The translations under genes were made by a program, and so were the position numbers. Below the pieces are notes generated by a model. The model saw only the letters and a list, made by a program, of their open reading frames with translations, ran no database searches and was not told the origin of the DNA. Below, piece after piece: positions 39,326-39,747 of a stretch of DNA of 51,145 nt (positions are counted from its first letter, which is position 1; every line of letters begins with the position of its first letter). The stretch comes from Candidatus Uhrbacteria bacterium (GTDB taxonomy: Bacteria > Patescibacteriota > Patescibacteriia > UBA9934 > GWF2-40-263). The stretch lies in NCBI GenBank assembly GCA_016188425.1, contig JACPHX010000012.1, forward strand, positions 1 through 51,145, given 5' to 3'.

Positions 39326-39747
39326 ACTTTTTGAGCGGACGACCTCGTGGTCCGTTGAAAAAGTGCGACGAAGTCCGTGCTGCTAACCCCGAGCGTTGGC
39401 AGCGGCTGCTAACGCTCGGGGTTAGCATGAGCAAGACGTCGCGCGCCCAGATATCGGAGGAGGGAGTGCCTCAACGGTCTTCGGATCGTTGGGAGGCCGT
39501 CAAATGTTTGGACTCGGGTTTCCGACTCCTTTCATACGCCGGACGGCCAATGGGTTTATACAGGCGCGAGCCTGTCACTATCCCCGTTTCTTCTCCGATA
39601 TCCGGGCGCAGGATCCCAGGGTTTCCCTACCCGTGCATCAGAGTTGGTGCCCGGATAACGGGCATCTACTATTTCGATGCCGGGATCTCTCTCCCTTTTC
39701 AAGGCTTCATTGTCTTGATAACTAAAAACCGCTTTTTGCGGTTTTTA
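39326..39747 (+). ncRNA. Candidate structured ncRNA with UUCG and GNRA tetraloop hairpins (family not recognised)
   Basis: A 16-bp perfect hairpin (39382-39426). A long-range helix GATATCGGAGGAG (39450-62) / CTTCTCCGATATC (39590-602). CAACGGTC-UUCG-GATCGTTG (39472-91). ACAGGC-GCGA-GCCTGT (39560-75). UCCGGGC/GCCCGGA (39601/39649). The region ends at the terminator AAAAACCGC-ttttt-GCGGTTTTT (39724-46). Confidence 0.4.

What the first reader, a model, noticed from the sequence alone, without database searches (positions are those of the whole stretch)
39326..39747. Unclassified structured RNA of about 300-400 nt with UUCG and GNRA tetraloops in a gene-free island
Within a 1-kb stretch with no credible CDS I see a 16-bp perfect hairpin (39382-39426). 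There is a 13-nt long-range helix, GAUAUCGGAGGAG/CUUCUCCGAUAUC, closing a domain of about 150 nt. An 8-bp stem is capped by UUCG (39472-91) and a 6-bp stem is capped by GCGA (39560-75). A nested GGCCGUC/GACGGCC helix and a UCCGGGC/GCCCGGA helix are also present, and a clean terminator lies at 39724-46. Both tetraloops are in their stable orientation on the plus strand, which is typical of selected RNA structure and argues for a plus-strand RNA. I could not find the RNase P P4 (GGAAAGUCC), SRP (GGAAGCAGC) or tmRNA consensus blocks, so the family is unknown to me. The 184-aa track ORF across the region runs through the hairpins and the terminator.
Basis: partly seen in the sequence, partly recalled or inferred. 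Interest (0 to 1): 0.6.

Follow-up and report, generated by a model that had tools for sequence, protein, structure and literature searches.

The report
New conserved structured RNA in Uhrbacteria
The flagged stretch holds one copy of a structured RNA about 180 bases long, absent from the RNA family catalogue searched, that most genomes of this group of tiny groundwater bacteria keep next to the same replication gene; what it does is not known.

Summary
The flagged 422 nt are, however, a composite.

- **Conserved part.** Only 39439-39619 is conserved. It is a 3- or 4-way junction RNA: a long P1 with an invariant GGAGGAGAGAG/CCUCC core, a variable P2 (the UUCG hairpin), and P3 and P4 with conserved internal loops.
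- **Distribution.** A covariance model built from 14 homologues finds it in 64 of 73 genomes of the family and 125 of 151 of the order. Outside the order it finds only 5 of 147 further genomes of the class.
- **Covariation.** 47 of 51 pairs show compensatory changes across 70 distinct copies.
- **Rfam.** No Rfam 15 family matches.
- **Second copy.** G000 has another copy at 37833-38024. The two copies flank an orphan gene.
- **Perfect hairpin.** 39381-39427 is a dispersed palindromic repeat with 19 other places in the genome.
- **Not conserved.** 39611-39688 has no counterpart in relatives.
- **Synteny.** The RNA lies divergent from a holB-like gene in 34 of 36 loci. It usually precedes non-homologous orphan ORFs and sometimes ends at its own terminator.
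- **Function.** Unknown. I favour a cis-acting regulatory leader (about 0.4) over a trans-acting RNA (about 0.3).
- **Rejected.** RNase P, SRP, tmRNA, 6S and coding readings.

Side finds are a mobile tRNA-like module with alanine identity, and an apparent lack of SRP in the order.

The parts
37762..37790 (+). Promoter-like site TTGACA-17 nt-TATTCT in front of motif copy 1. It is followed by CAAGAUGACC, which relatives also carry at the start of their leader.
   Evidence: Sequence read; regex hit; relatives' leaders.
37833..38024 (+). Motif copy 1, the weaker copy. It lies in the 5' leader of the orphan ORF, 56 nt from the holB-like gene (36599-37777, minus strand).
   Evidence: R2 scores 65.5 bits, E 8e-13, full model 1-187. 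The ACACC...GGUCACUG hallmark of P4 is present in the alignment.
38256..39182 (+). Orphan ORF flanked by the two motif copies. It is 308 aa from ATG 38256, with AGGAGG 8 nt upstream. The ORF listing reports 38190..39182 from a GTG.
   Evidence: No Pfam family. No homologue in 40 relatives or in metagenome contigs.
39324..39366 (+). Imperfect 20-bp hairpin upstream of copy 2. It was not seen in relatives.
   Evidence: Inverted repeat I3, 85% complementary; fold.
39381..39427 (.). Dispersed palindromic (REP-like) repeat.
   Evidence: 19 other places on 12 contigs of G000. C4:13574-13621 is 100% identical over 48 nt. Public contigs break or vary here.
39439..39619 (+). Motif copy 2, the conserved structured RNA. 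P1 is 39443-39463/39589-39609, P2 39470-39493 (UUCG loop), P3 39495-39548, and P4 39549-39588 (GCGA loop).
   Evidence: R2 scores 112.8 bits. Helices. Covariation.
39611..39688 (+). Lineage-specific 3' extension (two hairpins). Its 39649-39661 can alternatively pair with the 3' strand of P1.
   Evidence: Fold. Model positions 171-249 are deleted in most relatives' matches to R1. Inverted repeat I13.
39699..39750 (+). Small hairpin (39699-39718), then a terminator-like hairpin with flanking A and U runs (39720-39750).
   Evidence: Inverted repeat I10; folds. Not listed by the scan.

Best explanation
Window 39439-39619 (plus strand) is one of two copies in this genome of a structured RNA family that Rfam 15 does not hold. 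The family is conserved across an order of Patescibacteria whose public records are titled Candidatus Uhrbacteria.

The RNA folds as a 3- or 4-way junction. A long closing helix P1 has an inner part that is an invariant purine box (GGAGGAGAGAG) paired to CCUCC/CUYCUCC. P2 is an optional variable hairpin. P3 and P4 are two arms with conserved asymmetric internal loops (CAAAUG/CAUACGCC and ACACC/GGUCACUG) and an almost invariant G-U pair.

Shown: the family, its fold, its strand, and its fixed place divergent from a holB-like gene.

Inferred, about 0.4: it works in cis as a regulatory leader.
- In relatives, transcription would start at a conserved promoter about 200 nt upstream, pass a terminator-like hairpin, run through the motif, and continue into fast-evolving orphan genes that follow within about 20-120 nt.
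- The junction with its conserved loops would bind a ligand or a protein and set the expression of those genes.

In this genome copy 1 leads the orphan ORF. Copy 2 sits behind it and ends at its own terminator. The rest of the flagged stretch is a repeat plus non-conserved flanks.
For: **Family and fold.**
- A single-sequence model found Domain A in 9 of 72 family genomes.
- 14 copies each fold alone into the same architecture.
- A MAFFT alignment gives 51 pairs, 38 with compensatory changes. 91.3% of cells are paired, against 30-48% when partners are slid, and 0 of 500 shuffles reach this.
- 70 distinct copies give 47 of 51 pairs with double changes and 92.6% paired, against 33-45% slid.

**Distribution.**
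- 64 of 73 genomes in the family.
- 125 of 151 in the order, 50 of 55 genera.
- 5 of 147 further genomes of the class.

**Strand.** G-U 272 against A-C 80. The plus-strand fold is 31 kcal/mol better.

**Not in Rfam.**

**Place.** holB-like gene upstream on the opposite strand in 34 of 36 loci.

**Cis reading.**
- 50 of 69 copies have a Shine-Dalgarno plus start with an ORF of at least 40 aa within 200 nt. Only 10 of 69 have a terminator-like hairpin.
- Some downstream ORFs are conserved between species of one genus.
- Tandem or gene-flanking copies occur in many genomes.
- In 19 of 23 loci the motif has no promoter of its own and follows a conserved promoter, leader and U-tailed hairpin.
Against: - The genes downstream are not homologous to each other, and 8 of 8 tested have no Pfam family. 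The usual riboswitch argument from gene function is therefore unavailable.
- At least six copies are followed by a terminator or by a convergent gene with no ORF: G105, G106, G118, G125, G087 copy 2 and G000 copy 2.
- A test for sequestration of the downstream Shine-Dalgarno by the 3' strand of P1 gave 11 of 29, against 175 of 580 in shuffles. That is no enrichment.
- The ORF heuristic is permissive in G+C-rich DNA.
- The large alignment A5 was fitted to the model and leans towards the structure.
- Related genomes are not independent.
- No transcript data could be obtained.
Confidence: 0.45

Rival explanations
1. A trans-acting structured small RNA or RNP component with a housekeeping-type role in this order. 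It would be transcribed next to holB. The orphan ORFs behind it would merely ride on read-through.
For: - It is near-universal and mostly single-copy outside family f1 (51 of 64 genomes in f4).
- Its chromosomal place is fixed whatever lies downstream.
- Stand-alone copies with their own terminator exist.
- The purine box is invariant even in stand-alone copies.
- Downstream genes are not homologous.
Against: - Most copies lack a terminator before the next same-strand ORF.
- There are tandem copies, and copies in front of each ORF of an array.
- No partner protein or target is known.
- A terminator-like hairpin lies upstream of the motif rather than downstream in 19 of 23 loci.
Confidence: 0.3
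2. A self-cleaving or processing element that cuts or stabilises the transcripts of a variable gene array.
For: - Multi-branch junction with conserved internal loops.
- Copies lie between ORFs and in tandem, next to fast-evolving genes.
Against: - No match to any ribozyme family of Rfam, even at E up to 10.
- No conserved core recognisable as a known ribozyme.
- This reading rests on resemblance only.
Confidence: 0.08
3. A DNA-level site, for example a recombination site for turnover of gene cassettes, whose hairpins form in single-stranded DNA.
For: - Copies flank variable orphan genes at one hot spot.
- Structure is conserved with variable sequence in the outer P1.
Against: - G-U exceeds A-C 272 to 80, which fits RNA on one strand.
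- There is strong sequence conservation in loops.
- The neighbours found are holB-like and TrmB-like genes, not a recombinase. No systematic integrase search was made.
Confidence: 0.05
4. A divergent copy of a known housekeeping RNA (RNase P RNA, SRP RNA, 6S RNA or tmRNA).
For: G000 has no RNase P RNA match although rnpA is present. No SRP RNA or 6S RNA match was found in the genomes searched: 0 of 31 for small SRP RNA, 0 of 5 for large SRP RNA and 0 of 5 for 6S.
Against: - Relatives carry both the motif and a normal RNase P RNA (38 of 41).
- The family's P4 strands are absent from G000.
- No SRP54-type GTPase or M domain was found in G000, and no SRP54-type GTPase in 5 near-complete relatives, so no SRP RNA is expected.
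- The true tmRNA is on C9.
- The fold is a multi-branch junction, not the 6S rod.
Confidence: 0.03
5. The 184-aa ORF 39331..39885 is a real gene, and the hairpins are incidental.
For: An open frame exists.
Against: - No Pfam family.
- The frame crosses a dispersed repeat, a terminator hairpin and a tRNA-like element.
- Substitutions in homologues keep base pairs, not a reading frame.
- A stop-free frame occurs in 37 of 69 copies only.
Confidence: 0.01

Closest known systems
Orphan riboswitch candidates and large structured leaders such as the raiA motif RNA or the tandem glycine riboswitch (recalled from general knowledge, not from a call)
   Same: - Multi-helix junction with conserved internal loops and strong covariation.
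- Sits in front of genes.
- Occurs singly, in tandem, or occasionally stand-alone.
   Different: - No Rfam family matches.
- The downstream genes share no function that I could name.
- P1 has a sequence-invariant SD-like/anti-SD-like core.
- In relatives a terminator-like hairpin lies upstream of the motif, not downstream.
6S RNA, and other near-universal single-copy bacterial small RNAs
   Same: - About 190 nt with a long closing helix.
- Near-universal within its clade and mostly single-copy.
- No 6S match in the 5 genomes of the order that were searched.
   Different: - The fold is a 3/4-way junction rather than a rod with a central bubble.
- It is restricted to one order.
- It is often directly followed by ORFs.
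REP-type dispersed palindromes (applies to 39381-39427 only)
   Same: Short, near-perfect palindrome, many copies, in intergenic DNA.
   Different: The repeat family is specific to this genome among the 40 relatives searched. No associated transposase was looked for.

Membership tests
Bacterial RNase P RNA, type A (RF00010) | The covariance model matches, and the conserved P4 strands are present. In this family they read GAGGAAAGUCCGAACAC and ACAAAAUUCGGCUUACAG, as read from relatives. | tested here: not met
   - No match in the region at E up to 10 or in all of G000.
- nhmmer with 20 family RNase P RNAs finds nothing.
- No P4 strand within 3 mismatches in the window region.
- Relatives hold RNase P RNA elsewhere as well as the motif.
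SRP RNA (RF00169 / RF01854) | The model matches, and an Ffh partner with an M domain is present. | tested here: not met
   - No match.
- PF02978 and PF00448 absent from G000.
- PF00448 found in 0 of 5 relatives.
- TIGR00959 gives only P-loop-level hits.
tmRNA (RF00023) | tRNA-like ends enclosing a tag reading frame and pseudoknots. | tested here: not met
   No match within 39326-39747. The genome's tmRNA is at C9:37658-38062, 115.6 bits.
6S RNA (RF00013) | Rod-like helix with a large central bubble; the model matches. | tested here: not met
   No match. The control rang in only 5 of 14 known genomes, so sensitivity is low. The consensus fold is a multi-branch junction.
Riboswitch or cis-regulatory leader (a kind, not a family) | Conserved, covarying sensor fold. 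| tested here: met
Riboswitch or cis-regulatory leader (a kind, not a family) | Consistently upstream of genes on the same strand, and those genes are functionally coherent. | tested here: inconclusive
   - 50 of 69 copies have a following ORF by a permissive rule, and 10 of 69 have a terminator-like hairpin.
- At least six copies are stand-alone.
- Downstream proteins are non-homologous, and 8 of 8 have no Pfam family.
Riboswitch or cis-regulatory leader (a kind, not a family) | An expression platform with mutually exclusive pairings that involve P1. | tested here: inconclusive
   - SD pairing with the 3' strand of P1: 11 of 29 against 175 of 580 shuffled.
- One alternative pairing in G000 only, 39595-39607 with 39649-39661.
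Integron attC-type recombination site | An adjacent integron integrase, and function as folded single-stranded DNA. | not tested
   No integrase search was run. The neighbours identified are holB-like and TrmB-like genes. The excess of G-U over A-C argues for RNA.
Dispersed palindromic repeat (39381-39427) | Many near-identical palindromic copies across the genome. | tested here: met
   19 other places on 12 contigs.

The most novel reading that the evidence does not exclude
The motif is a new class of RNA sensor (riboswitch or protein-responsive leader) that gates a hypervariable locus of orphan genes, many of them small membrane proteins. I found no SRP in the genomes checked from this bacterial order. 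In the boldest form, the RNA with its built-in SD/anti-SD-like helix acts in cis on ribosome loading or on the localisation of these mRNAs, and so takes over part of what co-translational targeting does elsewhere.
Probability: 0.12. Interest if true: 0.9.

Novelty: new variant of a known kind. Interest (0 to 1): 0.68.

Why it matters
- **A rare kind of find.** Patescibacteria have tiny genomes and almost no described regulatory RNAs. My five text searches found no paper on such RNAs in this group. An RNA of about 190 nt with 47 of 51 covarying pairs, kept by 125 of 151 genomes of an order at one chromosomal place, is among the better-supported new RNA families one can get from sequence alone.
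- **Testable now.** It can be tested directly by in-line probing, pull-downs and reporters.
- **A marked locus.** It marks a locus where orphan genes turn over quickly. That is the kind of place where host-interaction genes of these episymbionts might sit.
- **Side observations.** The mobile tRNA-like module with alanine identity and the apparent loss of SRP are each worth their own follow-up.

Tried and rejected
**Divergent RNase P RNA.** G000 lacks one although rnpA is present. I rejected this reading because relatives have both RNAs and the P4 strands are absent. The one 3-mismatch hit, C9:24004, lies inside an ORF. Proteins near the relatives' RNase P RNA that hit C9:24432-25142 hit the same place as the glycosyltransferase-like genes. 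They gave no synteny clue.

**SRP RNA and 6S RNA.** Rejected; see the membership tests.

**Coding.** Rejected.

**MITE reading of the 20-nt inverted repeat.** Rejected, because there is no second copy of 39430-39760 in G000 by blastn.

**SD sequestration by P1.** No support.

**Searches that found nothing or could not run.**
- blastn of 39290-39760 against 40 relatives found only the repeat.
- The search for related loci with the orphan ORF in metagenome contigs found no relative.
- Expression: no RNA holder was listed.
- Read laying on contigs of four DNA runs of one study showed no variant in the motif and no inversion joint at the tRNA-like module. Contigs cannot show rare forms.
- Text searches found nothing on this RNA: 'Uhrbacteria' + 'noncoding RNA' gave 0 papers. 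For 'candidate phyla radiation' + 'structured RNA'/'covariation', 'Patescibacteria' + 'riboswitch' and 'candidate phyla radiation' + 'ncRNA' I saw listings and abstract starts only. I read passages of PMC11665869 and PMC8321541; neither bears on it. Supplements were not seen.

Full report
**Setting.** The window is contig C18 of a 1.016-Mb genome in 23 contigs, 95.7% complete. Public records that carry the same RNA are titled Candidatus Uhrbacteria or Patescibacteria group. The stretch 39183-40191 lies between a 330-aa ORF (38190-39182, plus strand) and a riboflavin-kinase gene (40192-40581, minus strand). It holds no ORF with a Pfam family.

**The observation.**
- The plus strand of 39326-39747 folds to -227 kcal/mol, z -13.0.
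- The minus strand folds to -196 kcal/mol, z -10.0.
- The core without the repeat, 39436-39700, still has z -7.6.
- Rfam 15 gives only four tRNAs in the window at gathering scores.
- At E up to 10 it gives nothing on 39430-39700.

**What is not part of the RNA.** The near-perfect hairpin 39381-39427 is a dispersed palindrome with 19 other places on 12 contigs of the same genome. Public contigs break at it. The rest of 39290-39760 has no blastn match in G000 or in 40 relatives.

**Finding homologues.**
- A covariance model built from the single sequence 39440-39692 (R1) matched 9 of 72 genomes of the same family at 43-58 bits. G000's own reverse strand scored 46 bits, so I read the alignments themselves.
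- Those alignments share unpaired sequence blocks (GGAGGAGAGAGU, CAAAUG, CAUACGCC, GGUCACUG) and compensated helices. They cover only model positions 1-170, that is window 39443-39609.
- Four genomes carry two copies in tandem.
- Each of 14 copies folds on its own into the same shape.

**Covariation.**
- On a MAFFT alignment of these 14 copies (A2), RNAalifold predicts 51 pairs, 38 of them with changes on both sides.
- 91.3% of cells are standard pairs, against 29.6-47.6% when the 3' partners are slid by 1-3 columns. No shuffle of 500 reaches the observed values.
- With model R2 built from A2, I aligned 72 matches, 70 of them distinct, from 64 sources.
- In that alignment 92.6% of cells are paired, against 32.9-45.0% slid. 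47 of 51 pairs show double changes, and the covariation score is 0.680 against 0.217 in shuffles.
- That alignment was fitted to the model and the genomes are related, so the figures overstate independence. The MAFFT-based result does not share the first weakness.
- The consensus keeps GGnGGAGAGAG, A..UG, A...GG/CU..CU with a G-U pair in 66 of 70 copies, CAyA, AyAcc and UCAcU.
- G-U/U-G cells number 272 against 80 A-C/C-A, as expected for an RNA read from the plus strand.

**Distribution.**
- R2 matches 64 of 73 genomes of the family, 27 of 29 genera, with 1-3 copies each.
- It matches 125 of 151 genomes of the order, 50 of 55 genera. By family: f1 59/65, f2 2/2, f3 0/1, f4 51/64, f5 5/5, f6 4/9, f7 3/4. 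Outside f1 it is mostly single-copy.
- In a sample of the class it matches 9 of 151. Four of those are G000 and its order, so 5 of 147 others match, at 35-53 bits.
- An exact-pattern scan of 185,579 species genomes gave 10 hits. Seven were confirmed by R2 and three were chance hits in unrelated taxa.
- No Rfam family matches nine relatives' loci at E up to 1.

**This genome has two copies.** R2 also matches 37833-38024 at 65.5 bits.
- That copy lies 56 nt from the holB-like gene (36599-37777, minus strand; PF13177).
- It sits behind TTGACA-17-TATTCT at 37762-37790.
- It sits in front of the orphan ORF, whose likely start is ATG 38256 behind AGGAGG.
- The ORF has no Pfam family and no relative in 40 genomes or in the metagenome collection.
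- The flagged copy therefore lies behind this ORF and runs into a non-conserved extension and a terminator hairpin.

**Context in relatives.**
- A holB-like gene lies upstream on the opposite strand in 34 of 36 loci. A TrmB-like regulator gene lies downstream on the opposite strand in 21 of 36; some flanks were too short to tell.
- Between them are one to three motif copies and non-homologous ORFs, many short and hydrophobic. Some are conserved within a genus.
- By a permissive rule, 50 of 69 copies are followed within 200 nt by a Shine-Dalgarno, a start and at least 40 codons. Ten of 69 are followed by a terminator-like hairpin.
- At least six copies stand alone.
- Only 3 of 36 loci have a promoter-like site within 100 nt upstream.
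- Instead, 19 of 23 loci show the following in order: a conserved promoter 170-230 nt upstream; a leader starting CAAGAUGAYC; a small CUUUCU-GGGG-AGAGAG hairpin; a variable hairpin; and a long hairpin with a U run that ends just before the motif.
- G000 copy 1 keeps the promoter and CAAGAUGACC but not the U-tailed hairpin.

**Mechanism.** The data show a selected RNA fold. They do not show what it does.
- I favour a cis-acting leader for three reasons. Most copies have no promoter of their own. They lie between an upstream attenuator-like hairpin and an ORF. Arrays put one copy in front of each ORF.
- The specific idea that the CCUCC strand of P1 alternately masks the downstream Shine-Dalgarno found no support (11 of 29 against 175 of 580).
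- The stand-alone copies, the fixed locus and the unrelated downstream genes keep a trans-acting RNA as a close rival.

**Known families.**
- *RNase P RNA* was the most tempting. G000 has rnpA but no RNase P RNA match, while 38 of 41 genomes searched (G000 included) have one. But those relatives also have the motif. The family's P4 strands are absent from G000. The gene is therefore more likely in an assembly gap.
- *SRP RNA*: no match in 31 genomes or with the large model in 5. The protein partner is also missing.
- *tmRNA* is on C9.
- *6S*: no match, and the fold differs.

**The neighbours in the island.**
- 39762-39955 is a separate module: a tRNA-like RNA followed by a promoter-like site, a strand complementary to its long 'anticodon' arm, and a terminator.
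- It has four copies in G000.
- Full-length copies occur in 9 other genomes of 72, patchily, with up to 3 full-length copies each.
- 39995-40165 is a third strongly folding unit (z -6.2) behind TTGACAAACC.
- The island sits at a synteny break. All 17 relatives' loci that hold the kinase keep NUDIX and riboflavin kinase together, 16 of them with ctpA as well, and in the 8 loci I checked HU and hflX follow the kinase. In G000, HU and hflX are on C4, 1.7 kb from another copy of the tRNA-like module.

**Verdict.** This is a real, plus-strand, conserved structured RNA of a family that Rfam 15 does not hold and that I did not find in print. It is embedded in a composite stretch, and its function is open.

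Noticed in passing
window 39762-39955 (also G000 C16:55043-55235, C4:11349-11544, C11:4527-4734): A module of about 190 nt, built in this order:
- a tRNA-like RNA with an extended acceptor stem and G3:U70 kept in all copies read;
- no D arm, and a 9-11 bp 'anticodon' arm with loop UUGUCAU or UUAUCAU;
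- a T loop UGCAAAU or UUCGAAU, and a 3' end ACCA or ACGG;
- then an A/U-rich spacer and a promoter-like TTGAC-17-TAnnnT (14 of 16 copies);
- then a strand complementary to the anticodon arm (15 of 16 copies, duplex -26 to -44 kcal/mol; 47 of 48 Watson-Crick cells and no G-U in the four G000 copies);
- then a terminator.

It has four copies in G000. Full-length copies occur in 9 of 72 other family genomes, patchily, which suggests a mobile element. It could be a tRNA/tmRNA-like decoy with its own antisense RNA, or a promoter flanked by inverted repeats..
   Followed up: partly
G000 and five near-complete relatives (G003, G028, G030, G032, G041): No sign of the signal recognition particle.
- Small SRP RNA: 0 of 31 genomes.
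- Large SRP RNA: 0 of 5.
- SRP54 GTPase domain PF00448: 0 in G000 and 0 of 5 relatives, one of which is a single-contig genome.
- M domain PF02978: 0 in G000.
- ffh TIGR00959: only P-loop-level hits.
- No ORF with DTAGR behind a P-loop in G000.

The same searches rang in all 14 control genomes for the protein families. I found no paper saying this; I saw only the listing.
   Followed up: partly
G000 whole genome: No RNase P RNA match, although rnpA is present at C23:99847-100158 and 38 of the 41 genomes searched (G000 included) have the RNA. Most likely the gene lies in an assembly gap.
   Followed up: partly
window 39381-39427 and 19 other places in G000: A family of palindromic repeats of about 47 nt, specific to this genome among the 40 relatives searched. 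The copy between HU and hflX (C4:13574-13621) is 100% identical over 48 nt to the window copy..
   Followed up: partly
window 39962-40165: A third unit in the island: TTGACAAACC-type promoter-like site, an RNA of about 170 nt folding at z -6.2 with three hairpin domains, and a terminator. There is no Rfam match and no other copy in G000..
   Followed up: no
window 38190-40191 versus G000 C4:11300-14600: A synteny break. The 17 relatives' loci that hold the kinase all keep NUDIX beside it, 16 also show ctpA, and in the 8 checked HU and hflX follow on. In G000 the kinase is joined to the holB locus, and HU and hflX lie on C4 next to another copy of the tRNA-like module. This fits a rearrangement between copies of that module. 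Upstream of the C4 copy there is an ORF that looks to me like an IS630-type transposase remnant; I did not test it against Pfam..
   Followed up: partly
relatives' loci L130-L157, 170-230 nt upstream of the motif: A conserved promoter and leader in this order: CAAGAUGAYC, a CUUUCU-GGGG-AGAGAG hairpin, a variable hairpin, and a long U-tailed hairpin directly before the motif. Seen in 19 of 23 loci. This may be an attenuator or a separate small RNA..
   Followed up: partly
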